Shown here: piece after piece, positions 1 through 60,806 of the stretch
How positions within the stretch are numbered: position 1 is the first letter of the stretch
Layout: each line of letters starts with the position of its first letter
Assembly (NCBI GenBank): GCA_026002935.1
Contig: BPGH01000001.1
Location: 2,629,250 to 2,693,249 of the forward strand
Length of the DNA stretch: 64,000 bases
From: Acidimicrobiia bacterium
Lineage (GTDB): Bacteria > Actinomycetota > Acidimicrobiia > IMCC26256 > PALSA-610
Direction: 5' to 3'
Made by a program: the position numbers and the translations under genes
The notes under the pieces: generated by a model
Databases searched by the model: none
What the model saw: only the letters and a program-made list of their open reading frames with translations
What the model was told of the DNA's origin: nothing

Positions 1-624
1 GGCCCGGAAGACCGGGCCGATCTCGTACACCCGTTCGAACACCCCGACCATCATCTGCTTGTAGAACTGCGGGCTCTGCGCGAGGTAGCCGGGCCGGCCG
101 AAGTAGTCGATGCGGAACACGTTGGCGCCGGTCTCGGTGGCCGACGCGACGATCTTCGGCGTCTGGATCTCGACGAAGCCGTCCGCGTCGAGCACGGCGC
201 GCATCCCGGCGAGCGACGCCGCACCGAGGCGGAACACGGCCCGCCGGCGCGGGTGGCGCAGCGACACCGCGGCGTGGTCGAGCAGGTACGGGAGCTGCTC
301 GCGCGGCTCGGGGACGCGCAGGTTGACCGGCGGCGGCTCGGGCGAACGGGCGATCTCCCGGAACACGGGGTCGACGAGCTCCACCCCCCCGGGGGCCTGC
401 CGCGACTCCTTGGGCGTGCCCTCCACCTCGAACACCGTCTCGTCGTGCCACTGCGCGACGGCGGCGCGGGTCGCGTCGTCGTTCACGACGACCTGGCAGA
501 CGCCCCGGCCGTCGCGCAGGATCACGAAGTCGACCTTCGACAGGGCCCGGTGGTTGAGCATCCACCCGCGCAGGACGACCCGCTCCCCGACGTGCTCGTG
601 CAGCTGCGTCGACCAGATCCGCAT
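1..624 (-). CDS. aspS: aspartate--tRNA ligase, type-2/archaeal-like class II aaRS (first 208 codons; gene continues beyond window start)
   Basis: I translated the reverse strand from the ATG (complement of 622-624): MRIWSTQLHEHVGERVVLRGWMLNHRALSKVDFVILRDG...QTPKIVASATETGANVFRIDYFGRPGYLAQSPQFYKQMMVGVFERVYEIGPVFRA. This is an OB anticodon-binding fold followed by class II motifs (SPQxYKQ, ..FRA). It is absent from the ORF track because it is open at the window edge. Confidence 0.65.
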   Translation of the reverse strand, partial: MRIWSTQLHEHVGERVVLRGWMLNHRALSKVDFVILRDGRGVCQVVVNDDATRAAVAQWHDETVFEVEGTPKESRQAPGGVELVDPVFREIARSPEPPPVNLRVPEPREQLPYLLDHAAVSLRHPRRRAVFRLGAASLAGMRAVLDADGFVEIQTPKIVASATETGANVFRIDYFGRPGYLAQSPQFYKQMMVGVFERVYEIGPVFRA

Positions 625-718
625 CGCCGGAACGCTACCGTCCGCCACCCGGTGGCCCGGCGACCGCCGCCACGGCGCCGGCGGCCGGATCGCCGCCTCC
701 GGAGCGGCTCGCGTACGA

Positions 719-735
719 TCTGACGTTCCGTCAGA
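719..735. promoter_or_regulatory. candidate operator: inverted repeat TCTGACG-ttc-CGTCAGA
   Basis: Read directly from the sequence. It lies in the 122-bp divergent gap between aspS (start 624) and the ipdA-like gene (GTG 747), 12 nt upstream of that GTG. A near-identical copy is at 59538-59556. Confidence 0.5.
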
Positions 736-746
736 CCGGGGGGAGC

Positions 747-1595
747 GTGGTACCCGACAAGCGCGTCACGATCGACGAGGTCGTCGCCGAGATCCGCGAC
801 GGGATGACCGTCGGCATCGGCGGCTGGGGGTCGCGCCGCAAGCCGATGGCGCTCGTGCGGGCCCTCGCCCGCTCGCCGGTGCGCGACCTGACGCTCGTGT
901 CGTACGGGGGCCCCGACGTCGGCCTGCTGTGCCGGGCCGGCAAGGTGCGCCACGTCGTCTACGCGTTCGTCTCCCTCGACTCGATCGCGCTCGAGCCCCA
1001 CTTCCGCAACGCCCGCCAGTCGGGCGCGGTGACGACGACCGAGCTCGACGAGGGGATGTTCCTGCTCGGGCTCCAGGCCGCGGCGTGGCGGGTGCCGTTC
1101 CTGCCGACGCGCGTCGGGCTCGGCTCCGACGTGCTCGCGTGCAACCCCCGGCTGCGCACGGTGCGCTCCCCCTACGACGACGGCGAGGAGCTCGTCGCGA
1201 TGCCGGCGCTGCAGCTCGACGTCGCGCTCGTCCACATGCACCGCGGCGACCGGGGTGGCAACGGGCAGTACCTCAACGTCGACCCGTACTTCGACGACCT
1301 GTTCTGCATGGCGGCGCGACGGAGGTTCATGTCGGTCGAGCGCCTCGTCGACACCGAGCAGCTCCTGGCGGGCGGGCCGCCGCAGTCGCTCCGCATCAAC
1401 CGCCTCATGACCGACGGCGTCGTCGAGACGCCGCACGGCGCGCACTTCACCGAGTGCGTACCCGACTACCCGCGCGACGAGGCCTTCCAGCGGGAGTACG
1501 CCGAGAGCGCGAGGAGCGACGAGGCGTGGGAGGCCTTCCGCGCCCGCTACGTCGACGTGACCGAGGCCGAGTACCAGTCGGTGGTGTCGCGGTGA
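747..1595 (+). CDS. ipdA: CoA-transferase alpha subunit, IpdA-like
   Basis: ORF track 747..1595 (GTG start). The translation GMTVGIGGWGSRRKPMALVRAL...ELDEGMF...MPALQLDVALVH is typical of a family I CoA-transferase A subunit. The gene order A subunit, B subunit, nitronate-monooxygenase-family gene matches the mycobacterial ipdABC block as I remember it. Confidence 0.75.
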   Translation: MVPDKRVTIDEVVAEIRDGMTVGIGGWGSRRKPMALVRALARSPVRDLTLVSYGGPDVGLLCRAGKVRHVVYAFVSLDSIALEPHFRNARQSGAVTTTELDEGMFLLGLQAAAWRVPFLPTRVGLGSDVLACNPRLRTVRSPYDDGEELVAMPALQLDVALVHMHRGDRGGNGQYLNVDPYFDDLFCMAARRRFMSVERLVDTEQLLAGGPPQSLRINRLMTDGVVETPHGAHFTECVPDYPRDEAFQREYAESARSDEAWEAFRARYVDVTEAEYQSVVSR

Positions 1596-2359
1596 GCGCG
1601 CCGGCCGGCCCGACCCGCGCCGACGTGTGCGCCGTCGCGATCGCGGAGTGCTTCCGCGACGACGGCGAGATCGTCGCGAACCCGATCGGGACGCTGCCGA
1701 TGATCGGCGGTCGGCTCGCGAAGGCGACCTTCGCGCCCCAGCTCCTCATGACCGACGGCGAGGCGCTGCTCGTCGAGAACGTGGTGCCGGTCGGCGTCGA
1801 GCGCCCCGAGAAGGTCGTCGGCGCGTGGAACCCGTACCGCGCCATGTTCGACGTCGTGTGGTCGGGCCGGCGCCACGTGATGATGGGCGCCAGCCAGATC
1901 GACCCCTGGGGCAACCAGAACTTCGCGTTCATCGGCAGCCACGAGCGCCCGCGCGCGCAGCTCCTCGGGATGCGCGGCGCGCCCGGCAACACGATCAACC
2001 ACCGCACCTCGTACTGGGTCCCGAACCACTCGCCGCGCGTGTTCGTCCCGTCGGTCGACGTCGTCAGCGGCGTCGGGTACGACCGCGCCGCCGCGCTCGG
2101 CGACGCCGCCCGGTTCCACGAGCTCGTCTGCGTCGTCACCGACCTGTGCGTGCTCGACTTCCGCACCCCCGACCACCGGATGCGGCTGCGCTCGGTGCAC
2201 CCGGGCGTCTCGGTCGACGACGTCGTCGCCGCGACCGGCTTCGAGCTCGTCATCGACGCCGACGTCCCGCCGACGCGTCTGCCGGAGCCGGAGGAGCTCG
2301 ACTGGCTCGCGCGGATCGACCCCAACGGGCTGCGCCACCGCGAGGTGCCCGACCCGTGA
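1592..2359 (+). CDS. ipdB: CoA-transferase beta subunit, IpdB-like
   Basis: These are the last 255 codons of track ORF 110..2359 (the upstream part is Arg/Pro-rich noise). GTG 1592 overlaps the ipdA stop (GTGA). Translation: VSAPAGPTRADVCAVAIAECFRDDGEIVANPIG...DPWGNQNFAFIG. Confidence 0.75.
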   Translation: MSAPAGPTRADVCAVAIAECFRDDGEIVANPIGTLPMIGGRLAKATFAPQLLMTDGEALLVENVVPVGVERPEKVVGAWNPYRAMFDVVWSGRRHVMMGASQIDPWGNQNFAFIGSHERPRAQLLGMRGAPGNTINHRTSYWVPNHSPRVFVPSVDVVSGVGYDRAAALGDAARFHELVCVVTDLCVLDFRTPDHRMRLRSVHPGVSVDDVVAATGFELVIDADVPPTRLPEPEELDWLARIDPNGLRHREVPDP

Positions 2360-3408
2360 TCCGCACCCGGATCTGCGACCTCTTCGGGATCGACGTCCCG
2401 ATCGTGCAGACCGGCATGGGCTGGGTCGCCGGCCCCCGGCTCGTCACCGCCACCGCGCGGGCGGGCGCCCTCGGGATCCTCGCCTCCGCCACGATGACCC
2501 TCGACGAGCTCGAGCGGGCGATCGCCGAGGTGCAGGACCGCACGGACCGGCCCTTCGGCGTGAACCTGCGGGCCGACGCCGAGGACGCCGACGCGCGCGT
2601 GCAACTCCTCGTGCGCCGCGGCGTCAGGGTCGCGTCGTTCGCGCTCGCGCCGCGCGAGGCCCAGGTGAAGGCGCTCAAGGACGCGGGCGTGGTCGTCGTC
2701 CCGTCCGTCGGTGCCCGCCGGCACGCCGAGAAGGTCGCCGCCTGGGGCGCGGACGCGGTGGTCGTGCAGGGCGGCGAGGGCGGCGGCCACACCGGGCCGG
2801 TGCCGACGACGCTGCTGCTCCCGCAGGTGGTCGACGCGGTCGGCATCCCCGTCGTCGCGGCGGGCGGCTTCTTCGACGGCCGCGGGCTGGTGGCCGCGCT
2901 CGCCTACGGCGCGTGCGGCGTCGCCATGGGCACCCGCTTCCTCCTGACCCGCGAGAGCACGGTCCCCGACCCGGTGAAGCGGTATTACCTCGAGCGCGGG
3001 CTGACCGACACGGTCGTGACGACCCGCATCGACGGCGTCCCCCACCGGGTGCTGCGCACCGAGCTCGTCGACGCGCTGGAGCGCACCAACGCCCTCACGG
3101 GCCTGCCGCGCGCGCTCCGCAACGCCGTCCGGTTCAAGCGGATGTCGGGCGCCTCGTGGCGCGGCATGGTGCGCGAGGGCCTCGCGATGAAGCGGGAGGC
3201 GGGACTCGGCTGGACGCAGGTCGCGCTCGCGGCCAACACCCCGATGCTGCTGCGCGCCGGGCTCGTGGAGGGCCGGCTCGACGCCGGGGTGCTGTCGAGC
3301 GGGCAGGTGGTGGGCGTGATCGACGACCTGCCGACGGTCGCCGAGGTGGTGACGCGGATCGTGCAGGAGGCGGAGGAGACGTTGCGGCGACTCGGGGGGA
3401 CCGGATGA
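2356..3408 (+). CDS. ipdC: nitronate monooxygenase / FMN-dependent enoyl reductase family, IpdC-like
   Basis: These are the last 350 codons of track ORF 1627..3408. GTG 2356 overlaps the ipdB stop (GTGA). Translation: ICDLFGIDVPIVQTGMGWVAGPRLV...VVQGGEGGGHTG...VVAAGGFFDGRG. Confidence 0.7.
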   Translation: MIRTRICDLFGIDVPIVQTGMGWVAGPRLVTATARAGALGILASATMTLDELERAIAEVQDRTDRPFGVNLRADAEDADARVQLLVRRGVRVASFALAPREAQVKALKDAGVVVVPSVGARRHAEKVAAWGADAVVVQGGEGGGHTGPVPTTLLLPQVVDAVGIPVVAAGGFFDGRGLVAALAYGACGVAMGTRFLLTRESTVPDPVKRYYLERGLTDTVVTTRIDGVPHRVLRTELVDALERTNALTGLPRALRNAVRFKRMSGASWRGMVREGLAMKREAGLGWTQVALAANTPMLLRAGLVEGRLDAGVLSSGQVVGVIDDLPTVAEVVTRIVQEAEETLRRLGGTG

Positions 3409-3866
3409 GCAAGGTGCGCGTGCCGGCCGTGGAGGGCTGGTTCACGATGGACGAACGGGAGCCGCACCTGATCGGCGAGCGCGGGACGCGCACCGGCAGC
3501 TACTTCTGGCCGAAGGCCGTCGCGGTGTCGGCGAACCCGCTCGCGCCCGACGAGGAGCGCGAGGAGGTCCTCCTGTCGCGCCACGGCCGCCTGTGGTCGT
3601 GGACCACCAACCACTACCCGCCCCCCGAGCCGTACGTCGCGCCCGACCCGTTCGTGCCGTACACCGTGTGCGCGGTGGAGCTCGAGCGCGAGCGGATGGT
3701 CGTGCTCGGCCAGCTCGCGACCGGCGCCGACCCGGCGGCCCTGGCGGTCGGGATGGAGATGGAGCTCGTGCTCGGGCCGCTCTTCGAGGACGACGCGCAC
3801 GAGTACGTCGTCTGGCAGTGGGCGCCGCGGGCGGCGACCGCGGCCCGAGGGGAGGCCGGCCGGTGA
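3405..3866 (+). CDS. DUF35 OB-fold protein (partner of thiolase-like Ltp enzymes)
   Basis: ATG 3405 overlaps the ipdC stop (ATGA). Translation MSKVRVPAVEGWFTMDEREPHLIGERGTRTGSYFWP...YTVCAVELERERMVVLGQL is the usual DUF35 pattern, and the gene sits directly upstream of an Ltp-type thiolase. Confidence 0.7.
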   Translation: MSKVRVPAVEGWFTMDEREPHLIGERGTRTGSYFWPKAVAVSANPLAPDEEREEVLLSRHGRLWSWTTNHYPPPEPYVAPDPFVPYTVCAVELERERMVVLGQLATGADPAALAVGMEMELVLGPLFEDDAHEYVVWQWAPRAATAARGEAGR

Positions 3867-5062
3867 GCGCGGACCGTTCGATCGCGATCCTCGGGGTGGG
3901 CATGCACCCGTGGGGCAAGTGGGGCCGCAACTTCGTCGAGTACGGGCTCGTCGCCGCCCGCGAGGCCCTCGCCGACGCCGGCCTCGCCTGGACCGACATC
4001 CAGTTCGTGTCCGGCGGCGAGACCGTGCGCAACGGCTATCCCGGGTACGTCGCCGGCGCCACCTTCGCGCAGGCGCTCGGATGGAACGGCGCGCAGGTCG
4101 CGTCGTCGTACGCGGCGTGTGCGTCCGGGGTGACCGCCCTGTCGACCGCACGGGCGCAGATCCTCGCCGGTCTCTGCGACGTCGCGCTCGTCGTCGGTGC
4201 CGACACGACCCCGAAGGGGTTCCTCGCCCCCAACAAGGGCGAGCGGGGCGACGACCCCGACTGGCTGCGGTTCCGGCTGCTCGGCGCCACCAACCCGACG
4301 TACTTCGGCCTGTACGCACGGCGCCGGATGGAGCTGCACGGGGCGACCCGCGAGGACTTCGCGCTCGTGAAGGTGAAGAACGCGCGGCACGGGATGGCGA
4401 ACCCGCACGCGCGCTACCGCAAGGAGGTCACGGTCGACGACGTGCTCGCCGCCCCGGTCGTGTCGGACCCGCTCGGGCTGCTCGACATCTGCGCGACGAG
4501 CGACGGCGCCGCCGCGCTGGTCGTGTCGAGCGTCGAGTACGCGCGGGCCCGGGGGCGGGCCGACGCGCCCCGCATCCGCGCGATCTCGACCGTGACACCG
4601 TCGTACCCGCAGACGACGATCGAGCTGCCGAACTTCGCGACCGACTCGGCCGCGGGTGCCGGCGAACCGCCCGCGCACGGCTTCAAGGAGTCGATCGCGC
4701 GGCGGGCCTACGAGGAGGCCGGGGTCGGACCGGAGGACCTCGACTGCGCCGAGGTCTACGACCTGTCGACCGCGATGGAGCTCGACTGGTACGAGCAGAT
4801 CGGGCTGTGCGCGCCGGGCGATGCCGAACGGCTGCTGCGCGACGGCGCGACGGCGCTCGGCGGGCGGGTGCCCGTGAACCCGAGCGGCGGGCTCGCCTGC
4901 TTCGGCGAGGCGGTCCCCGCGCAGGCGATCGCCCAGGTGTGCGAGCTGGCGTGGCAGGTGCGCGGCGTGGCGCACGGGCGCCAGGTCGAGGGTGCGCGCG
5001 CCGGACTGTCGGTGAACCAGGGCCTGTTCGGCCACGGCTCGGCCGTGGTCGTGACCGCCTAG
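3863..5062 (+). CDS. thiolase-like lipid-transfer protein (Ltp / SCP-x type)
   Basis: GTG 3863 overlaps the DUF35 stop (GTGA). The 399-aa translation reads IAILGVGMHPWGKW...SYAACASGVTAL...NPSGGLACFGEAVPAQAIAQVCEL. Confidence 0.8.
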   Translation: MSADRSIAILGVGMHPWGKWGRNFVEYGLVAAREALADAGLAWTDIQFVSGGETVRNGYPGYVAGATFAQALGWNGAQVASSYAACASGVTALSTARAQILAGLCDVALVVGADTTPKGFLAPNKGERGDDPDWLRFRLLGATNPTYFGLYARRRMELHGATREDFALVKVKNARHGMANPHARYRKEVTVDDVLAAPVVSDPLGLLDICATSDGAAALVVSSVEYARARGRADAPRIRAISTVTPSYPQTTIELPNFATDSAAGAGEPPAHGFKESIARRAYEEAGVGPEDLDCAEVYDLSTAMELDWYEQIGLCAPGDAERLLRDGATALGGRVPVNPSGGLACFGEAVPAQAIAQVCELAWQVRGVAHGRQVEGARAGLSVNQGLFGHGSAVVVTA

Positions 5063-22127: not shown

Positions 22128-22823
22128 TCAGCGCGCCGGCGCGGGCGCGCCGAAGAACCCCCGGTGCACCGTGTGGGTGACGGTGGCGAGGAGCTCGCCG
22201 GGCGCGAGGTCGAGGCGGCGCGACACCAGGTAGTACGCGAAGCGTTCGAGCATCGCCATCAGCGCCGAGACGGTCGCGCCGTCGGCGACCGCGCCCGCCT
22301 CGCGCATCCGCCGGCCGAGCGCGGTCGCGATGTCGGTGAACGCCTGCACGCCGAGCGCCCCGACCTCCCGGTCGTCGACGTGGCCCTCCATCCACGCCCG
22401 GATCACCGGCCCGTACCGCCGGTAGGTCCCGAAGAACTCGTCGAGGAACCGCGCCAGCTCCTCGTAGCCGGCGTCGTCCGGCCCGACCGCGCCGAGCCGG
22501 GACGCCAGGTCGTCGAGCGTCTCCGCGCACTCGCGTGCGAGCGCGCGCAGCAGGTCTTCCTTGTTCGCGAAGTAGAGGTAGAAGGTGCCGTGTGACGCGC
22601 GCGCGGCCCGCACGATGTCGTCGACGCGCGCGGCGTGGAACCCGCGCTCGGCGAACACCCGCATCCCGGCGTCGAGCAGTCGCCGCATGGTCCTGCGGCC
22701 CTGCGCCCGCAGCTCCCGGCGTTGCGCGGGGCTCACGGCGGCGGGACGACGCGCGCGGCGCCTGCCACCGCCCCCGTCGCGCGCGCGACCCGCTGTGTAG
22801 CCTTCGCTCATGCTCCCCGCCAC
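22128..22823 (-). CDS. TetR-family transcriptional regulator
   Basis: Track ORF of 231 aa. The HTH reads FAERGFHAARVDDIVRAARASHGTFYLYFANKEDLL. The start is either GTG 22823 or ATG 22811, and either one overlaps the divergent FadD start. Confidence 0.85.
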   Translation of the reverse strand: MAGSMSEGYTAGRARDGGGGRRRARRPAAVSPAQRRELRAQGRRTMRRLLDAGMRVFAERGFHAARVDDIVRAARASHGTFYLYFANKEDLLRALARECAETLDDLASRLGAVGPDDAGYEELARFLDEFFGTYRRYGPVIRAWMEGHVDDREVGALGVQAFTDIATALGRRMREAGAVADGATVSALMAMLERFAYYLVSRRLDLAPGELLATVTHTVHRGFFGAPAPAR

Positions 22824-27929: not shown

Positions 27930-27949
27930 CCCTGACACGCGTGTCAGGG
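27930..27949. promoter_or_regulatory. perfect 20-bp palindrome CCCTGACACG|CGTGTCAGGG (candidate operator, N4 class)
   Basis: Read directly. It lies 14 nt upstream of the SDR ATG at 27963. An extra CCTGAC half-site is at 27915-27920. Confidence 0.45.
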
Positions 27950-30967: not shown

Positions 30968-30983
30968 CTGACATCGACGTCAG
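30968..30983. promoter_or_regulatory. inverted repeat CTGACA-tcga-CGTCAG (candidate operator, N4 class)
   Basis: Read directly. It lies 32 nt upstream of GTG 31015. Confidence 0.35.
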
Positions 30984-31014
30984 CGACGTCGCACCCGGAT
31001 CGGAGGCGAGGCAC

Positions 31015-38955: not shown

Positions 38956-39570
38956 TTGAGCCCCACACGTCGAGAGCTGGTACGCGCGACCCGCACCCGG
39001 ATCGTCGACGCCGCCGCCCGGCTGATGCGCGAGCGCGGCGCGAGCGGCTGGAGCATGGACGTCCTCGCGAAGGAGGCGGGGGTCGCCCGCGCGACCGTGT
39101 ACGAGCACTTCCGCTCCAAGCGCGCGGTGCTCGACGAGCTCGCCGCGACCGCTGCCCGCGAGATCGTGCTCGAGCCGCCGGCGGCGACCGAGGACCCGTT
39201 GCGCGCGCTGCGGGACGTGCTCGCCGAGGTCTGCCGCCACTGGGCCGCGCACGGCGAGACGATGCGCGACCTGCGGACCCTGAAGGCGATGACCGGTGCC
39301 CCGACCACCTCGGACGCGATCGGCCGGGAGGACCTCGCGCACCTCGTCGAGTCGCTGGCGGCCACCGGCCAGCTCCGCCAGCACTGGACGACCGAGGACG
39401 CGGTCGACGCACTCGGCGTGCTGACGTCGTACGCGACCTTCGAGCGGCTGCGCGCGCCCGGCCGGAGCCCGGAGGAGATCGAGGCGGTGCTCGCCCGCCT
39501 CGCGGTCGCCGTCGTCGCGCCGAGCGCGAGCACCAGCCCGAACCCGGGCGCGCCCGCGGGCACCGGCTAG
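38956..39570 (+). CDS. TetR-family transcriptional regulator
   Basis: Track ORF of 204 aa (TTG start, GGAGGA RBS). Translation: IVDAAARLMRERGASGWSMDVLAKEAGVARATVYEHFRSK. Confidence 0.8.
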   Translation: MSPTRRELVRATRTRIVDAAARLMRERGASGWSMDVLAKEAGVARATVYEHFRSKRAVLDELAATAAREIVLEPPAATEDPLRALRDVLAEVCRHWAAHGETMRDLRTLKAMTGAPTTSDAIGREDLAHLVESLAATGQLRQHWTTEDAVDALGVLTSYATFERLRAPGRSPEEIEAVLARLAVAVVAPSASTSPNPGAPAGTG

Positions 39571-39579
39571 TCGCGCGCG

Positions 39580-40275
39580 TCAGCCGCTCCGCCGGTCGCT
39601 CGCGTCGCCGACGACCGTGCGGTGGATGATCCGCGCGGTCGTCTCGACGAGCTCGGTCCGGGTGATCCCGAGCGGTTCGAGGTCGCGGTGGAACGCCGCC
39701 ATGCGCTCGATCAGCGCGACGAGCGCGGCCGCGGCGGCGAGCGGCGACAGCTCGGCGGGAACCCTGCCCCGGCGGCGCGACCGTTCGATCTTCGCCTCGA
39801 ACCCGACCAGGAACTCGTGGTTGGCGCGGTTGCGGACCTCCCGGAACCGCTCGTCGCCCTCCTGCGCCGCGAGGTTGCGGCTCCGCAGCACGGCCCGGTG
39901 GCGGTCCCAGTGCTCGACGAACCCGTCGACCAGACGGCGCGCGTGGTCGAGGCCCTCCGGGCCGTCCCAGGAGGGCTCCAGCCACGCGACCAACGACCGG
40001 CCCTCCTCCCCCACCTCCTCGGCCAGCACGAGCACCGCGTCCTGCGCGTCCCGGAAGTACTGGTAGAAGGTCGCCGGCGACGTGCCGACCTCGCGGGCGA
40101 TGTCGACCACCCGCAGGTCCCGGATCCCGTGGGTCGCGAGCAGCGCCGCCGTGGCGTCGAGCAGCCGGCGCCGGGTCCGCTGCCCGCGCTGGCCGATCCG
40201 GCGGCCGTCGAGCGCCTGGGCGGCCGGCCCGCCCCCCGCGCCGCGCCCGGCGTCCGCGGCCGGCACCGTGTCCAC
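39580..40275 (-). CDS. TetR-family transcriptional regulator
   Basis: Track ORF of 231 aa. Translation: LLDATAALLATHGIRDLRVVDIAREVGTSPATFYQYFRD. Confidence 0.8.
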   Translation of the reverse strand: MDTVPAADAGRGAGGGPAAQALDGRRIGQRGQRTRRRLLDATAALLATHGIRDLRVVDIAREVGTSPATFYQYFRDAQDAVLVLAEEVGEEGRSLVAWLEPSWDGPEGLDHARRLVDGFVEHWDRHRAVLRSRNLAAQEGDERFREVRNRANHEFLVGFEAKIERSRRRGRVPAELSPLAAAAALVALIERMAAFHRDLEPLGITRTELVETTARIIHRTVVGDASDRRSG

Positions 40276-40317: not shown

Positions 40318-40935
40318 TCAGCGGCCGGGGGGCGCCGATCCGTCGCGGCCGGGCTCGAACGGGAAGACCGTCCCCCGGATCTCCCGGATCGTCGCGTCGA
40401 GCTCCTCGACCGTCTGGCGGATGCGCTGCGCGACCTCCGGGGCGAGGCCGGCGTCGCGGAGCGCGTCCAACGTCAGCCCGGCCGCGTACAGCCGCTGGAT
40501 CACGTGGTCGGAGAGGTCGCGCCCGGCGCGCTCGCGGTCCGCGGCGCGGCCCGCGAGCAGCGCGAGCGCCGCCTGCTGCGCGAACGTCTCGACCACCCCG
40601 ACGTCGCGCGCCGCGAACGGGCGGCCGCCGGGGCCGTTCGCCACGACGAGCGTCCCCTCGTGACGCCCCCGCGCCTCCAGGGGGACGCGCACGTCGGGTC
40701 CGAACCCCGCGAGCAGCGAGGCCGGGTCGCCACGGGCGCCGCGCCGCCGGGCGGCGTCGCGGCCGACGGCGGCCGCGACCACCGACTCGGCCGGGTGTTC
40801 GCCGGCGACGAGCACGAGCGCCGTGTCGGCCCCCGCCAGCCGGCGCGCGTGCGCGGCGACGAGCTGCAGGACGGCTTCGAGCTGCTCGCCCGACAGGACC
40901 GCCCCGGCGATCTCGCGCACCGCCCGCAGCGACAT
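40318..40935 (-). CDS. GAF + HisKA_3 (DHp) protein without ATPase domain (truncated or stand-alone sensor-kinase fragment)
   Basis: Track ORF of 205 aa. A GAF-like N-terminal half is followed by an H-box, RDLSDHVIQRLYAAGLTL...LDATIREIRGTVF. The stop follows right after, and only 42 nt separate it from the next gene. Confidence 0.6.
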   Translation of the reverse strand: MSLRAVREIAGAVLSGEQLEAVLQLVAAHARRLAGADTALVLVAGEHPAESVVAAAVGRDAARRRGARGDPASLLAGFGPDVRVPLEARGRHEGTLVVANGPGGRPFAARDVGVVETFAQQAALALLAGRAADRERAGRDLSDHVIQRLYAAGLTLDALRDAGLAPEVAQRIRQTVEELDATIREIRGTVFPFEPGRDGSAPPGR

Positions 40936-40984: not shown

Positions 40985-41437
40985 TCAGGCCGCGGGGCCG
41001 CCGTCCGCGGGCCGGAAGTCCACGAACCCGTACTCGTCGCTCGCGGGCCGGAACGCCGCCACCACCCGCATCCCGATCCGGGCCCGGTCCGGGTCGAGGT
41101 CGGGCATCGCGCCGAGCACCCGGGCGCCGCGCTCGTCGAGATCGACGGCGGCCACCACGAACGGGACCCGCTCGGGGAACGGCGGCACGCCGTTCTGGCG
41201 GATGACCGTGAAGGAGTAGACGGTGCCGTACCCGCTGGCCGTCACCCACTCGGGGTCGGCGGCGCCGCAGTGGGAGCACGCCAGGCGCGCGTAGTGCTGG
41301 TGCAGCCCGCAGGCCCGGCAGCGCTGGACCCGCAACTCGCCGCGCCGGGCGCCGGCCCAGAACTCGCGGTCCTCGGGTGTCGGGCGCGGCACGAGGTGCG
41401 CCGGGGTCTGCGCCCAGGACCTCGGCCGGCTCGCCAT
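40985..41437 (-). CDS. DUF35 zinc-ribbon/OB-fold protein (no adjacent thiolase)
   Basis: Track ORF of 150 aa. Translation: REFWAGARRGELRVQRCRACGLHQHYARLACSHCG...GTVYSFTVI. Confidence 0.7.
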   Translation of the reverse strand: MASRPRSWAQTPAHLVPRPTPEDREFWAGARRGELRVQRCRACGLHQHYARLACSHCGAADPEWVTASGYGTVYSFTVIRQNGVPPFPERVPFVVAAVDLDERGARVLGAMPDLDPDRARIGMRVVAAFRPASDEYGFVDFRPADGGPAA

Positions 41438-57475: not shown

Positions 57476-58387
57476 TCAGCGCCCGGGGGCGGCGAGCGCG
57501 TCGGCGACGGCGTCCGCGTGCGCGTCGGCGCTCCCGAAGCACGTGTCGAGCACCCACGCGCGCTTCAGGAACAGGTGGACGTCCACCTCCCAGGTGTAGC
57601 CCATGCCGCCGAACACCTGCGTCGCCGCCTTGCCGTTCGCGATCGCGGCCTCACCGGCGAGGAGCTTCGCGACGGCGACCGAGCGGTCGGCACCCCCTTC
57701 GGCGGGCGCGTCGAGGTGCGCGCCGGCCGCGTACACGGCCGCGCGCGCGACCTCGGTCCGCACGAGCATGTCGGCGAGCAGGTGCTTGATCGCCTGGAAC
57801 GACCCGATCGCGCGGTCGAACTGGACGCGCTCCTTCGCGTACTCGACCGCGAGCTCCGTGACCCGGTCCGCGAGGCCGAGCTGGAACGCGGCCGTGAGCG
57901 CCGCGCCCGCGCGCCGCACCCCGGCGACGTCGACGTCGAGCGGCTCGCCCGGCGGCAGCTGCGCGACGCGCCCGACCGGCGTGAGGAAGTCGAGCGGCCA
58001 CGGCGAATGCTCGACCTCCAGCGCGCGCGGGTCGACCAGCGCCGCCGCGGCGCCGTCGAGCACGACGAGGGCGTCGAGCGCGCCGGGGTGCTCGACCCAC
58101 GCCGGCCCGGCGCGCTCGACGACGCCCGTGACACCGTGGACCTGGAACAGGAGCGACGCGACGAGCGGGCCGGGGACGCACCGGCGGCCGAGCTGCTCGA
58201 ACACGATCACACAGTCGGACCACGAGAATCCGTCGGCGCGCAGGGTGAAGACGCCGGCCTCGGCGAGCTCGTCGTACACGCCCCGGTCGAAGCCGGCGCG
58301 GATCCGCTCCGGACCGAAGCGGGCCGTGAGCACCGCGTCGATGCCGTCGCGCAGCGCGACCTGGTCGGGCGAGAGGTCGAGGTCCAT
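57476..58387 (-). CDS. acyl-CoA dehydrogenase, small subunit of an adjacent pair
   Basis: ATG 58387 overlaps the upstream stop (ATGA), within composite track ORF 57476..59041. Translation: MDLDLSPDQVALRDGIDAVL...AKERVQFDRAIGSFQAIKHLLADM...GGMGYTWEVDVHLFLKRAW. Confidence 0.8.
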   Translation of the reverse strand: MDLDLSPDQVALRDGIDAVLTARFGPERIRAGFDRGVYDELAEAGVFTLRADGFSWSDCVIVFEQLGRRCVPGPLVASLLFQVHGVTGVVERAGPAWVEHPGALDALVVLDGAAAALVDPRALEVEHSPWPLDFLTPVGRVAQLPPGEPLDVDVAGVRRAGAALTAAFQLGLADRVTELAVEYAKERVQFDRAIGSFQAIKHLLADMLVRTEVARAAVYAAGAHLDAPAEGGADRSVAVAKLLAGEAAIANGKAATQVFGGMGYTWEVDVHLFLKRAWVLDTCFGSADAHADAVADALAAPGR

Positions 58388-59523
58388 CAGCGCGGCTCCT
58401 TCGGGAGGCCGAGTACCCGCTCGCCGATGATGTTGCGCTGGATCTGCGAGCTGCCGGCCGCGATCGTGAGGGCGAGCGTGCGCAGGCGCTCCTCGACGAG
58501 CTCGTTGCCGTCGACGTGCAGCGCCTCGCGGTCGAGGACCCGCAGGCACAGCTCGCCGAAGCGCTGACGGGCCTCGGTGTAGGCGAGCTTGATGACGGTC
58601 GCGCCCGGGCCGCTCACCCCGCGCGCCGACTGCGAGACGTTCCGTTTCGTCAGCGCCCACAGGCCGTCGAACTCGGCGGCGCAGCGGCCGAGCTCCCGGC
58701 GCTGCGCGGGGTCGCGAACGAGTGGCACGAGGTCCTCGCACAGGCGCATCGCGTCCACGAGCTCGCTGACGAAGGCGGTGCCGCGCTCGTACTTGAGCGT
58801 CACGTTGGTGACGCGCCAGCCGTCGTTCTCGGCACCCACCCGGTTCGCGACGGGCACCCGCACGTCGGTCAGGAAGACCTCGGAGAACTCCGACGATCCG
58901 AGCACCGTCCGCAGCGGCCGCACCTCGATGCCGGGCAGGTCCATGGGCAGGATCAACCAGGAGATGCCCTTGTGCTTGGGCGCGCCCGGATCGGTGCGCA
59001 CGAGGAACTCCCCGACGTCGGCGACCTGCCCGAACGAGCACCAGATCTTCTGCCCGTTGAGGACATAGTGGTCCCCGTCACGCTCGGCACGCGTGCGCAG
59101 CGACGCGAGGTCGGAGCCCGCACCGGGCTCGGAGAAGCCCTGGCACCACACCTCCTCCCCCCGCAGGATCCTCGGCAGGTGCGCGGCCTTCTGCTCCGGC
59201 GTGCCCTCCTCGATGAGCGTCGGCCCGGCGTGCAGGAGCCCGACGAAGTTCACCCCGACGTACGGCGCGCGCGCCCGCGCCGTCTCCTCGTAGAAGATGA
59301 GCTGCTCGGTCGGCGACGCGCCGCGCCCGCCGTACTCGGCGGGCCAGTGGAGCCCGGCGTACCCGGCGTCGTACAGGCGGCGCTGCCAGTCGGTGTCGTA
59401 GGCCCGCCGCGCGGCCCACGCGTCGCGTGGCGGCTCGGGCGGCAGGGTCGGGAGCACGGCGGCCAGCCAGCGCCGCAGCTCGGCGCGGAACGCCTCGTCG
59501 GCCTCGTCGTACCGGTACTGCAC
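58387..59523 (-). CDS. acyl-CoA dehydrogenase, large subunit of an adjacent pair
   Basis: Track ORF of 378 aa (GTG start). Translation: WCQGFSEPGAGSDLAS...IAAGSSQIQRNIIGERVLGLP. Confidence 0.85.
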   Translation of the reverse strand: MQYRYDEADEAFRAELRRWLAAVLPTLPPEPPRDAWAARRAYDTDWQRRLYDAGYAGLHWPAEYGGRGASPTEQLIFYEETARARAPYVGVNFVGLLHAGPTLIEEGTPEQKAAHLPRILRGEEVWCQGFSEPGAGSDLASLRTRAERDGDHYVLNGQKIWCSFGQVADVGEFLVRTDPGAPKHKGISWLILPMDLPGIEVRPLRTVLGSSEFSEVFLTDVRVPVANRVGAENDGWRVTNVTLKYERGTAFVSELVDAMRLCEDLVPLVRDPAQRRELGRCAAEFDGLWALTKRNVSQSARGVSGPGATVIKLAYTEARQRFGELCLRVLDREALHVDGNELVEERLRTLALTIAAGSSQIQRNIIGERVLGLPKEPR

Positions 59524-59537
59524 GGGCGCAGTCTAAG

Positions 59538-59556
59538 ATCTGACGAGGCGTCAGAT
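59538..59556. promoter_or_regulatory. perfect inverted repeat ATCTGACG-agg-CGTCAGAT (candidate operator, N3 class)
   Basis: Read directly. It lies 15 nt upstream of the fadE-like GTG 59523 and 51 nt upstream of ATG 59607. It is near-identical to 719-735. Confidence 0.55.
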
Positions 59557-59606: not shown

Positions 59607-60806
59607 ATGGCCGCCGAGATCCCGAAGATCGTCAGCGTCGACGACCACGTCGTCGAGCCACCCCACGTCTGGGAGCGCTGGCTCCCCGCGCGCCTGCGCG
59701 ACCGGGGACCGCGCGTCGAGCGCCGGGGCATCGGGCACATGCGCCACGTCGGCGGCGGGACCTACGAGCAGACCTTCGACGACGACGGCCCGCAGGCCGA
59801 CTGCTGGGTGTACGAGGACCTGGTCTACGTCCACAAGCGCCACGTCGCCGCCGTCGGGTTCGACCGCGACGACATGACCATGACGCCGATCACCTACGAC
59901 GAGATGCGCCCGGGCTGCTACGACCCGAAGGCGCGGGTCGAGGACATGGAGCTGAACTGGGTCGAGGCGTCGCTGTCGTTCCCGACCTTCCCCCGCTTCT
60001 GCGGCCAGACGTTCCTCGAGGGCAAGGACCGCGAGCTCGCGCACGCCTGCGTGGTCGCCTACAACGACTGGATGGTCGAGGAGTGGTGCGGCGACTCCGG
60101 CGGCCGGCTGATCCCGCTCATCATCGTGCCGCTGTGGGACGCGCACCTCGCCGCCGCCGAGGTCCGGCGCAACGCGGCGCGCGGCGTGCACGCCGTGTGC
60201 TTCAGCGAGATCCCGCCGAAGCTCGGGCTGCCGTCGATCCACTCCGGCGCCTGGGACCCCTTCTTCGCCGCCTGCCAGGAGACCGACACGGTCGTGTGCA
60301 TGCACATCGGCTCGTCGTCCCAGATGCCGGCGACCTCGCCCGACGCCCCGGTGGCCGTCGCCGCGACCCTCTCGTTCAACAACGCGATGGCGTCCCTGTC
60401 GGACTTCCTGTTCTCGGGCGTGCTCGTGCGCTTCCCGACCCTGAAGCTCGCGTACTCCGAGGGCCAGATCGGCTGGCTGCCGTACGTGCTCGAGCGTGCC
60501 GACGACGTGTGGATGGAGCACCGCGCCTGGGCGGGGGTGCGCGACATCGTCCCCGAGCCGCCGTCGACCTACTACTACCGGCAGGTCTTCGGCTGCTTCT
60601 TCCGGGACCGACACGGCCTCGAGTCGCTCGAGCGCGTCGGCGTCGACAACATCACGTTCGAGACCGACTACCCGCACACGGACTCGACGTGGCCGCACAC
60701 GAAGAAGGTCGCCGAGGAGATGATGGGCCACCTCCCCGACGACGTGGTGCGCAAGATCGTGCGCGCCAACGCGATCCGCATGCTCTCGCTCGACCTCGCG
60801 CCCTGA
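59607..60806 (+). CDS. amidohydrolase-2 family metal-dependent hydrolase
   Basis: I prefer ATG 59607 (AGGAG RBS, 5-nt spacer) over the track start at 59580. Translation: IVSVDDHVVEPPHVWE...VVCMHIGSS...ITFETDYPHTDSTWP. Confidence 0.8.
   Translation: MAAEIPKIVSVDDHVVEPPHVWERWLPARLRDRGPRVERRGIGHMRHVGGGTYEQTFDDDGPQADCWVYEDLVYVHKRHVAAVGFDRDDMTMTPITYDEMRPGCYDPKARVEDMELNWVEASLSFPTFPRFCGQTFLEGKDRELAHACVVAYNDWMVEEWCGDSGGRLIPLIIVPLWDAHLAAAEVRRNAARGVHAVCFSEIPPKLGLPSIHSGAWDPFFAACQETDTVVCMHIGSSSQMPATSPDAPVAVAATLSFNNAMASLSDFLFSGVLVRFPTLKLAYSEGQIGWLPYVLERADDVWMEHRAWAGVRDIVPEPPSTYYYRQVFGCFFRDRHGLESLERVGVDNITFETDYPHTDSTWPHTKKVAEEMMGHLPDDVVRKIVRANAIRMLSLDLAP

What the first reader, a model, noticed from the sequence alone, without database searches (positions are those of the whole stretch)
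719..735. Near-identical 17-19 bp palindrome in front of the ipdA-like operon and, 59 kb away, the fadE/amidohydrolase divergon
aTCTGACG-ttc-CGTCAGAc (719-735) and ATCTGACG-agg-CGTCAGAT (59538-59556) share both 7-8 nt arms and the 3-nt spacer length. Both sit in divergent promoter gaps within 15 nt of a start codon of a CoA-thioester catabolic operon. This is the signature of one dimeric repressor (TetR-like) with a regulon spanning the window. The arms do not match the KstR (TnnAACnnGTTnnA) or KstR2 (AnCAAGnnCTTGnT) operators as I remember them. So this ipdABC-like block may be under a different regulator than in mycobacteria.
Basis: seen in the sequence. Interest (0 to 1): 0.6.

Follow-up and report, generated by a model that had tools for sequence, protein, structure and literature searches.

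The report
TetR repressor operator of catabolic regulon
The two palindromes are real binding sites for a repressor that switches off genes for breaking down ring-shaped, fatty-acid-like compounds. The repressor is most likely the TetR-type protein encoded at 39580-40275 of the same window, and this switch, apparently undescribed, is shared by many actinobacteria and replaces the mycobacterial KstR2 switch in front of the ipdABC genes.

Summary
TCTGACG-N3-CGTCAGA occurs exactly at 719-735 and 59539-59555, and a third exact copy lies 18 kb past the window; about 0.005 exact copies are expected by chance in the whole genome. The motif is a conserved operator. It is present in 51 of 61 relatives and across the class and phylum, while a reversed control pattern is almost absent. 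It lies a median of 21 nt in front of start codons of ACAD, Amidohydro_2, SDR, CoA-transferase, thiolase and acyl-CoA-ligase genes. The best candidate binder is the EthR-like TetR encoded at window 39580-40275 (minus strand), here called TetR-C. In 200 Acidimicrobiia genomes, 60 with its ortholog carry 1-29 sites (median 7) and 140 without it carry 0-4 (median 0). In at least 15 genomes a site sits directly upstream of the ortholog or heads the operon that ends with it. At the ipdA promoter itself the arms are kept where TetR-C exists and have decayed where it is lost. The other TetRs tested fail these tests. In kind this is an ordinary TetR-operator pair, but the specific regulon appears undescribed. 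Binding, effector and transcription starts are inferred, not shown.

The parts
718..736 (.). Operator O1: A-TCTGACG-ttc-CGTCAGA-c. Exact 17-bp palindrome at 719-735.
   Evidence: Orthologous ipdA promoters keep it where TetR-C is present.
713..718 (+). -10-like hexamer TACGAT, abutting and overlapping the left edge of O1 (inferred promoter of ipdA).
   Evidence: Read from the sequence. 'cTACGAT' is kept in orthologous promoters even where the operator arms have decayed. Not found by the strict sigma-70 scan, so this is an inference.
747..1595 (+). ipdA-like CoA-transferase alpha subunit, the first gene behind O1.
   Evidence: PF01144, E=2e-34. 66-86% identical to relatives in Acidimicrobiia, Salinispora, Actinoplanes and Myxococcota.
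1592..2359 (+). ipdB-like CoA-transferase beta subunit (GTGA start/stop overlap with ipdA).
   Evidence: PF01144, E=2e-6; sequence.
2356..3408 (+). NMO-family flavoenzyme (ipdC-like), overlapping the ipdB stop.
   Evidence: PF03060, E=9e-87.
3405..3866 (+). DUF35/ChsH2_C OB-fold protein.
   Evidence: PF01796.
3818..5062 (+). SCP-x-type thiolase-like protein, the last gene of the O1 operon. The start is approximate.
   Evidence: PF22691 and PF00108.
59538..59556 (.). Operator O2: a perfect 19-bp palindrome, ATCTGACG-agg-CGTCAGAT, in the 83-bp divergent gap.
59533..59538 (+). -10-like hexamer TAAGAT for the amidohydrolase gene. A mirror TGGAAT lies on the minus strand for the ACAD operon (inferred).
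   Evidence: Read from the sequence. Not found by the strict scan.
58387..59523 (-). Acyl-CoA dehydrogenase, large subunit (PimC-like), the first gene behind O2 on the minus strand.
   Evidence: TIGR03204-like, E=4e-64, below cut-off. In G102 its ortholog heads an operon of N3 site, ACAD pair, SDR and TetR-C.
57476..58387 (-). ACAD small, partner subunit.
   Evidence: PF00441.
59607..60806 (+). Amidohydro_2 (PF04909) protein behind O2 on the plus strand. A paralog sits behind the third exact site at C1:2710968.
   Evidence: This family is the one most often found next to sites in relatives.
39580..40275 (-). TetR-C, the candidate repressor that binds O1 and O2 (TetR_N + TetR_C_38 + EthR_C). 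The true start is probably about 20 codons downstream.
   Evidence: Pfam; PDB best hit EthR. Co-occurrence with the motif. Sites upstream of orthologs or of their operons. Operator decay where it is absent.
40985..41437 (-). DUF35 OB-fold gene, the conserved operon partner just upstream of TetR-C.
   Evidence: A tblastn match lies next to the TetR-C ortholog in 22 of the 29 relatives' loci.
40318..40935 (-). GAF + HisKA_3 protein without an ATPase domain, inserted between DUF35 and TetR-C. Seen only in this genome.
   Evidence: Pfam. No homolog in the 29 orthologous loci.

Best explanation
The two palindromes are operators of one homodimeric TetR-family repressor. Each half-site, (A)TCTGACG, would be read by the helix-turn-helix of one subunit. 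In this window the operators start at the last bases of -10-like hexamers (TACGAT, TAAGAT) and end 11-15 nt before start codons. A bound dimer would therefore occlude the transcription start region. It would shut off the ipdA-ipdB-NMO-DUF35-thiolase operon at O1. At O2 it would shut off both the ACAD pair and the divergent Amidohydro_2 gene. The repressor is most likely TetR-C, the EthR-like TetR encoded at 39580-40275 (minus strand) between the two sites. By analogy with KstR2, FadR and EthR, a CoA-thioester or lipid-like pathway intermediate would release it. The same regulator-operator pair controls 1-29 promoters per genome across Acidimicrobiia and other Actinomycetota. Here it takes the place that KstR2 holds in front of ipdABC in mycobacteria. 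Shown: the sites, their conservation, their promoter-proximal position, and the genomic linkage to TetR-C. Inferred: physical binding, repression, the promoter elements and the effector.
For: (1) The sites are far above chance and mostly intergenic. (2) The motif is conserved in sequence rather than through covariation. Every arm position is 84-100% invariant in 76 sites from more than 40 genomes; the flanking A/T are 70% conserved and the spacer is free. (3) In relatives, 52 of 70 sites lie within -40 to +150 nt of a gene start, with a median of 21 nt. The neighbouring genes are Amidohydro_2, ACAD, SDR, IpdA-like and CaiB-type CoA transferases, enoyl-CoA hydratase, thiolase and acyl-CoA ligase. 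(4) Co-occurrence with TetR-C. Among relatives, 37 genomes with the ortholog have a median of 6 sites and 23 without it have a median of 1. At class level, 60 with it have 1-29 sites and 140 without it have 0-4 (Fisher 2e-39). At phylum level, 21 genomes outside the class have a homolog and carry 1-22 sites, while nearly all others carry 0-3. (5) Autoregulatory architecture. A site lies directly upstream of the ortholog in G041, G042, G051, G056 and G059, with degenerate copies in G043, G049 and G172. A site also heads a co-directional operon whose last gene is the ortholog in G076, G154, G196, G102, G374 and G338 (gene calls), and lies upstream on the correct side in G062, G108, G118 and G325, where my gene calls were incomplete. 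(6) Decay test at the ipdA promoter itself. Six genomes with TetR-C score 13-15 of 15. Twelve without it score 8.5-12.5, with one exception at 13.5, although the -10 box is kept (P=4e-4). (7) The recognition helix G(T/S)SPATFYQYF is invariant in TetR-C across classes, matching the invariant operator. (8) The paralog TetR-D (33% identical) has the related 4-nt-spacer operator in front of its own gene here and in 13 of 20 orthologous loci. This group of TetRs therefore reads CTGAC half-sites.
Against: In this genome and its family, TetR-C has no site of its own within 1.5 kb; it follows a DUF35 gene. The co-occurrence tests are not corrected for phylogeny, and any gene of the same catabolic island would show a similar profile. 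There are exceptions. G426 has 7 sites, G441 has 5 and G211 has 4 without a detectable homolog, and L080 keeps a 1-mismatch ipdA site without TetR-C. The -10 boxes are not recognised by a strict sigma-70 scan. TAnnAT overlapping the arm is seen in only 10 of 76 gene-oriented cases.
Confidence: 0.8

Rival explanations
1. The palindromes are real operators, but they are bound by a transcription factor other than TetR-C. Candidates are another TetR of the catabolic island or the conserved tandem TetR pair at C1:1841828-1843247. On this reading TetR-C merely travels with the regulon.
For: TetR-B (C1:1842549-1843247) has a degenerate TCTGATG-N3-CGTCAC at its start codon, behind a strongly conserved promoter. 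Its presence also correlates weakly with site number (P=1e-3). TetR-C lacks its own site in this genome.
Against: TetR-B orthologs are present in six genomes with zero sites (G006, G013, G016, G017, G040, G054). The degenerate motif there overlaps the start codon and the first codons. TetR 38956-39570 occurs in only 17 of 61 relatives, including zero-site genomes, and in none of the site-rich families of the order. TetR 22128-22823 is present in zero-site genomes and absent from genomes with 6-11 sites; it tracks the N4-spacer motif instead. Among about 100 site-flanking regions, the only recurrent regulator gene is TetR-C.
Confidence: 0.13
2. The inverted repeat acts as an RNA hairpin (7-bp stem, 3-nt loop) at the 5' end of the transcripts, affecting stability or translation. 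It would not be a protein-binding DNA site.
For: The sites lie between the putative -10 box and the start codon, so they would be transcribed. A perfect 7-bp GC-rich stem can form.
Against: The arm sequence itself is invariant across classes, with no compensatory variation. One-mismatch variants break the pairing. The sites serve divergent genes on both strands. No terminator-like T-run follows. Site number depends on the presence of one TetR gene.
Confidence: 0.04
3. The matches are chance, or a dispersed repeat or mobile-element end with no regulatory function.
For: Only two copies fall within the window. Short GC-rich palindromes are common in a genome with 75% G+C.
Against: The expected number of exact copies is 0.005 per genome against 3 observed. 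The reversed control is almost absent in hundreds of genomes. The flanks beyond 19 bp are not conserved. The position relative to start codons is constant.
Confidence: 0.01

Closest known systems
KstR2 (Rv3557c) and its operator AnCAAGnnCTTGnT in Mycobacterium and Rhodococcus (PMC3068626; pathway in PMC5380842)
   Same: Both involve a TetR-family repressor and short palindromic operators in (often divergent) promoter gaps about 20-40 nt from start codons. Both control a regulon of CoA-thioester catabolic genes that includes ipdA-ipdB-ipdC. In many genomes the regulator is autoregulated.
   Different: The operator sequence is unrelated, and no KstR2 motif exists in this genome. TetR-C belongs to the TetR_C_38/EthR_C group. 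The regulon is larger (up to 29 sites per genome) and is rich in Amidohydro_2, SDR and ACAD-pair genes. It is distributed in Acidimicrobiia and other non-mycolic Actinomycetota. Orthology to KstR2 was not tested directly.
KstR (Rv3574) and its operator TnnAACnnGTTnnA
   Same: It is a TetR master repressor of a large lipid and steroid catabolic regulon in actinobacteria, with 14-bp palindromes at promoters.
   Different: The motif is different. TetR-C gives no hit to the NCBIfam KstR model at E<=1e-3. KstR-like palindromes (for example TAGAACGCGTTCTA) occur separately, 23 times, in this genome, so a KstR-type system may coexist.
EthR (Rv3855) of Mycobacterium tuberculosis, the closest solved structure
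   Same: The alignment covers the full length (residues 21-213, E=2e-8), and the EthR_C domain is shared (PF21313). From my own knowledge, EthR is a TetR repressor with a long hydrophobic ligand tunnel.
   Different: From my own knowledge, EthR controls a single divergent gene (ethA) through a long operator bound cooperatively by several dimers. Here there are single 19-bp palindromes at many promoters. Sequence similarity is low.
The sister operator CCTGAC(R)-N4-(Y)GTCAGG with TetR-D (C1:1934261-1934992) and TetR 22128-22823 in the same genome
   Same: The CTGAC/GTCAG half-site core is the same. The regulators are paralogous TetRs (33% identity) with a similar recognition helix. The target genes are of similar catabolic types (SDR, hotdog, ACAD).
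   Different: The spacer is one base longer and the outer flank is C rather than T. Its distribution is independent: it is present in genomes lacking TetR-C and absent from some that have it.

Membership tests
TetR-family repressor/operator pair | A short operator with dyad symmetry (about 15-20 bp) | tested here: met
   The 17-19-bp palindrome is perfect at both window sites. The logo is symmetric over 19 bp.
TetR-family repressor/operator pair | The operator lies in promoter regions of the regulated genes | tested here: met
   Seven or eight of 10 own-genome sites are intergenic. In relatives, 52 of 70 sites lie within -40 to +150 nt of a gene start, median 21 nt.
TetR-family repressor/operator pair | A cognate TetR gene (PF00440 HTH plus a ligand-binding C-terminal domain) that is genomically linked and co-inherited with the operator | tested here: met
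   TetR-C carries PF00440, PF19352 and PF21313. Co-occurrence. Sites upstream of the gene or of its operon in at least 15 genomes. Decay test.
TetR-family repressor/operator pair | Sequence-specific binding of the protein to the operator, and release by a ligand | not testable with these tools
   This needs EMSA or DAP-seq and a ligand screen.
KstR2 regulon | Operator AnCAAGnnCTTGnT (PMC3068626) | tested here: not met
   There are 0 matches in the whole genome and only 2 to the 10-bp core, neither near these genes. The ipdA promoter carries TCTGACG-N3-CGTCAGA instead.
KstR2 regulon | The regulator is orthologous to Rv3557c | not tested
   No KstR2 reference sequence was used. TetR-C's best named similarities are to EthR, ScbR and FabR-type models, all far below their cut-offs.
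KstR2 regulon | Controls the ipdABC (HIP ring C/D) genes | tested here: met
   The operator lies 11 nt in front of the translationally coupled ipdA-ipdB-NMO operon. This is a functional analogy only.
KstR regulon | Operator TnnAACnnGTTnnA | tested here: not met
   The arms of the two sites do not fit it. KstR-like palindromes occur elsewhere in the genome.
EthR-like / TetR_C_38 subfamily | C-terminal domain matching PF19352 or PF21313 | tested here: met
   PF19352 at E=2e-25 and PF21313 at E=7e-9, both above their gathering scores. All 120 closest homologs listed carry PF19352.
Intrinsic terminator / structured RNA element | A stem-loop followed by a T-run, or covarying stem positions | tested here: not met
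   There are 0 terminator-like sites. The arms are invariant in sequence and do not covary.

The most novel reading that the evidence does not exclude
TetR-C and its operator ATCTGACG-N3-CGTCAGAT may form an undescribed master regulon, conserved across the phylum and analogous to KstR/KstR2. It would govern a CoA-dependent pathway for alicyclic, steroid-ring-like or terpenoid-like compounds in Acidimicrobiia, in large-genome actinomycetes (probably Streptomyces) and in other Actinomycetota. Paralogous TetRs (TetR-D, TetR-22128) would read the same CTGAC half-site but tell their own promoters apart mainly by a one-base difference in spacer length. Two parallel regulons would thus be insulated by spacing alone.
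Probability: 0.45. Interest if true: 0.55.

Novelty: new member of a known kind. Interest (0 to 1): 0.4.

Why it matters
It assigns a regulator and an operator to a large set of otherwise anonymous catabolic genes in uncultured Acidimicrobiia. These genes include Amidohydro_2, ACAD pairs, SDRs and ipdABC homologs. It also shows that the ring-opening ipdABC module is wired to a different TetR than in mycobacteria. Because operator and regulator are nearly invariant across the phylum, the motif can be used directly to delineate this regulon in thousands of genomes. It also points to where the unknown substrate might be found, through the acyl-CoA ligase genes that share an operon with the regulator. 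The sister motif with a 4-nt spacer offers a simple natural system for studying how paralogous TetRs avoid cross-talk.

Tried and rejected
(1) TetR-B, of the tandem TetR pair at C1:1841828-1843247. It has a degenerate site at its start codon, but the gene is present in six zero-site genomes and correlates only weakly. Rejected as the main binder.

(2) TetR 38956-39570. It is found in 17 of 61 relatives, including zero-site genomes. Rejected.

(3) TetR 22128-22823. It is present in zero-site genomes and absent from genomes with 6-11 sites. It tracks the N4-spacer motif instead. Rejected.

(4) An autoregulatory site in front of TetR-C or of its DUF35-GAF-TetR operon in this genome. None was found.

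(5) The KstR2 motif. It has 0 hits in the genome.

(6) Strict sigma-70 promoter and terminator scans around both sites found nothing. The -10 assignments therefore stay as inferences.

(7) Literature searches for the arm sequences together with TetR, operator or acyl-CoA terms, and for Acidimicrobiia together with steroid or KstR2 terms, gave no description of this motif. I could not verify that it is an ortholog.

(9) Structure prediction was not run, because it would not bear on operator assignment.

Full report
**Observation.** The window reads cgATCTGACGttcCGTCAGAcc at 718-736 and agATCTGACGaggCGTCAGATtc at 59538-59556. The pattern TCTGACGNNNCGTCAGA has exactly these two matches in the window. 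The window is C1:2629250-2693249 of a 3.45-Mb genome with 75% G+C. Record titles of its closest relatives name it an Acidimicrobiia MAG. A third exact copy lies at C1:2710968, 18 kb beyond the window end. There are also two 1-mismatch and five 2-mismatch copies, against one match for the reversed control. A base-composition model expects 0.005 exact copies per genome.

Site 1 ends 11 nt before the GTG of an ipdA-like gene and lies 70 nt from a divergent class-II Asp/Asn-type tRNA synthetase gene. Site 2 lies 15 nt from the GTG of an ACAD gene on the minus strand and 51 nt from the ATG of an Amidohydro_2 gene on the plus strand. The third exact site sits between a paralogous Amidohydro_2 gene and a gene I read as sulfotransferase-like, which gave no Pfam hit.

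**What lies behind the sites.** Behind site 1 are five overlapping, translationally coupled genes:
- ipdA (747-1595, PF01144)
- ipdB (1592-2359, PF01144, GTGA overlap with ipdA)
- an NMO-family flavoenzyme in the position of ipdC (2356-3408)
- a DUF35/ChsH2_C OB-fold protein (3405-3866)
- an SCP-x-type thiolase (to 5062)

Behind site 2 are a large and small ACAD pair (59523 down to 57476) and, divergently, an Amidohydro_2 protein. The 1- and 2-mismatch sites elsewhere in the genome precede a Peripla_BP_6 solute-binding protein and two SDRs.

**Conservation.** With up to one mismatch, the motif occurs in 51 of 61 genomes of the same family and order, at up to 11 copies, while the reversed control is nearly absent. 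In a sample of 200 genomes of the class it occurs at up to 29 copies. In a sample of 300 genomes of the phylum it is abundant in several other families, including a genus with 7-10-Mb genomes that carries 5-22 copies.

I collected 76 sites with their flanks from more than 40 genomes. Each arm position is 84-100% invariant, the flanking A/T are 70% conserved, and the 3-nt spacer is free apart from avoiding T and A next to the arms. Nothing beyond 19 bp is conserved. In relatives, 52 of 70 sites lie within -40 to +150 nt of a gene start, with a median of 21 nt. The neighbouring genes fall into a few families: Amidohydro_2, ACAD, SDR, IpdA-like and CaiB-type CoA transferases, enoyl-CoA hydratase, thiolase-like proteins and acyl-CoA ligases. 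An invariant sequence with dyad symmetry, a fixed promoter-proximal position and a coherent set of target genes is the signature of an operator read base by base by a dimeric protein. It does not fit an RNA helix or a dispersed repeat.

**Which protein?** No regulator gene flanks the sites in this genome. I followed two leads.

The first lead was a 2-mismatch copy overlapping the start codon of a TetR gene, TetR-B (C1:1842549). TetR-B is the second gene of a conserved tandem TetR pair with a strikingly conserved promoter. However, its orthologs are present in six genomes that have no site at all, and the association is weak.

The second lead came from about 100 site-flanking regions of relatives. 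The only recurrent regulator there was one TetR, found just downstream of sites in G041, G042 and G051, with more distant versions in G059 and G056. Its ortholog in this genome (61-65% identity) is the gene at window 39580-40275 on the minus strand, which I call TetR-C. It carries TetR_N, TetR_C_38 (PF19352) and EthR_C (PF21313). Its closest solved relative is EthR. Its more than 1,600 metagenomic homologs bear only generic names.

**Tests of TetR-C.**

(a) Phyletic pattern.
- Among 60 relatives, 37 genomes with an ortholog (E<1e-30) carry 1-11 sites (median 6). The 23 without one carry 0-4 (median 1), and all ten zero-site genomes lack it.
- Among 200 genomes of the class, 60 with the ortholog carry 1-29 sites (median 7). 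The 140 without it carry 0-4 (median 0). Fisher's test for three or more sites gives P=2e-39, uncorrected for phylogeny.
- Among 277 genomes of the phylum outside the class, 21 have a homolog (37-44% identity) and carry 1-22 sites. Of the remainder, only two reach 5-7 sites.

(b) Autoregulatory architecture. In other families of the order a site lies directly upstream of the ortholog. In other orders and another class, a site heads a co-directional operon whose last gene is the ortholog. The other genes of these operons are acyl-CoA ligases, an ACAD pair orthologous to the one behind site 2, an SDR, or a 206-aa protein I did not scan that looks like a hydrolase. This arrangement is resolved by gene calls in G076, G154, G196, G102, G374 and G338. 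In G062, G108, G118 and G325 the site lies upstream on the correct side, but my gene calls were incomplete.

(c) Decay test at the very promoter in question. I examined 18 genomes with close IpdA orthologs in the same synthetase/ipdA arrangement. The six that possess TetR-C keep the operator (score 13-15 of 15). The twelve that lack it show eroded arms (8.5-12.5, with one exception at 13.5), although the adjacent cTACGAT box is retained (P=4e-4).

(d) The recognition helix G(T/S)SPATFYQYF is invariant in TetR-C from different classes, in line with the invariant operator.

(e) The two other TetRs of the window fail. The TetR at 38956-39570 exists in only 17 of 61 relatives, including zero-site genomes. 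The TetR at 22128-22823 is present in zero-site genomes and absent from genomes with 6-11 sites.

**A sister system.** I confirmed this as a separate class. CTGAC-N6-GTCAG occurs 21 times exactly in the genome and CTGAC-N5-GTCAG (the present motif) 5 times; other spacings occur at most 4 times and the controls 0-3 times. A paralog of TetR-C, TetR-D (C1:1934261-1934992, 33% identical), has such a site 19 nt upstream of its own gene here and in 13 of 20 orthologous loci. The N4-spacer motif is distributed independently of TetR-C and follows the TetR-D/TetR-22128 group. This strengthens the inference that this group of TetRs reads CTGAC half-sites, and that the 3-nt-spacer class belongs to TetR-C.

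**Mechanism proposed.** At both window sites a -10-like hexamer (TACGAT at 713-718, TAAGAT at 59533-59538) abuts or overlaps the operator's first base, and a mirror TGGAAT faces the ACAD operon. The operator would therefore cover the transcription start and the first 15-20 nt of a short leader. A bound dimer would block open-complex formation or promoter escape. At site 2 a single dimer would control both divergent units. These promoter assignments are inferences. A strict sigma-70 scan finds nothing, and the TAnnAT overlap is seen in only 10 of 76 gene-oriented cases. The effector is unknown. TetR-C shares operons with acyl-CoA ligases and ACADs and has an EthR-type C-terminal domain, so a CoA thioester or a hydrophobic pathway intermediate is the natural guess.

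In this genome TetR-C has no operator of its own. It follows a DUF35 gene, as in the whole family, with a GAF-HisKA_3 gene inserted that I found in no relative.

**Comparison with what is known.** In mycobacteria and rhodococci, ipdABC belongs to the KstR2 regulon, whose operator is AnCAAGnnCTTGnT (PMC3068626; pathway in PMC5380842). That motif has no match in this genome, and the ipdA promoter carries the present palindrome instead. In logic the system works like KstR2 or KstR: a TetR repressor, short palindromes close to start codons, a CoA-thioester catabolic regulon and frequent autoregulation. It is not a member of those regulons. Full-text searches found no description of the motif.

Other agents in this scan reached similar conclusions on other genomes, including a TetR_C_38 regulator and a possible Streptomyces counterpart, SCO4421. 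I read those notes only after I had identified TetR-C. I confirmed the TetR_C_38 assignment and the phylum-wide spread, but could not verify the SCO4421 identity. That gene is published only as a sporulation-induced TetR without a mutant phenotype (PMC3878966).

**Verdict.** The sites are operators, and the most probable binder is the TetR at 39580-40275. I put about 0.95 on their being operators of a dimeric regulator and about 0.8 on TetR-C being that regulator. In kind this is an ordinary TetR-operator pair. In particulars it is an apparently undescribed regulon conserved across the phylum that replaces KstR2 at ipdABC, with a paralogous sister regulon distinguished mainly by spacer length. 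Binding, repression, effector and transcription starts remain to be shown experimentally.

Noticed in passing
window 27932-27949 and 30968-30985 (exact); also C1:1935011 and 19 further genome sites: A second palindrome class, CCTGAC(R)-N4-(Y)GTCAGG, has 21 exact CTGAC-N6-GTCAG copies in the genome. It lies in front of SDR, hotdog and ACAD-sized genes and in front of the paralogous TetR-D gene. Its distribution follows the TetR-D / TetR 22128-22823 group and not TetR-C.
   Followed up: yes
genome C1:1842380-1842570 (outside the window); loci L040-L069: A tandem TetR pair is conserved in 52 of 60 relatives. The promoter of the second gene is almost invariant at order level: TGTGACGCGnGACACaTTGACGnTGAGAC-N12-TTAnTGTCTC, that is, a GAGAC...GTCTC inverted repeat bracketing the -35/-10 spacer. 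An apparently leaderless ATG follows, embedded in a degenerate TGATG-N3-CGTCA. Its function is unknown.
   Followed up: partly
genome-wide, e.g. C1:1180536, 1534305, 1987819: There are 23 matches to the KstR-type pattern TnnAACnnGTTnnA, several of them close to the mycobacterial consensus (TAGAACGCGTTCTA, TGGAACACGTTCTA). A KstR-like regulon may coexist with the TetR-C regulon. Their context was not examined.
   Followed up: no
window 40318-40935 (-): A GAF + HisKA_3 protein without a catalytic ATPase domain is inserted between the DUF35 gene and TetR-C. No homolog is found at this position in 29 orthologous loci, where DUF35 is directly followed by TetR-C.
   Followed up: partly
G008:C2:464753-465374, G023:C2:88936-89564, G033:C4:934217-934836: In one genus of the family, the TetR-C ortholog matches in two or three overlapping pieces in different frames, although 3-5 sites persist. 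These assemblies have few contigs, so long-read indel errors are as likely as true pseudogenes.
   Followed up: no
loci L107, L112, L114, L121, L133, L147, L149 (Myxococcota ipdA loci), 20-110 nt upstream of ipdA: Upstream of myxobacterial ipdA orthologs a different conserved element recurs (…ACGAGACGTAnCGTATCAT… / …AACGATACGTCTCGTTAT…). This suggests yet another regulator for the same operon in that phylum.
   Followed up: no
window 1-648 (-) and 719-735: The gene divergent from ipdA is a class-II Asp/Asn-type tRNA synthetase rather than a catabolic gene. The synthetase/ipdA arrangement is conserved in the family (e.g. L031). Whether the operator also affects the synthetase promoter, 70 nt away, is unknown.
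   Followed up: no
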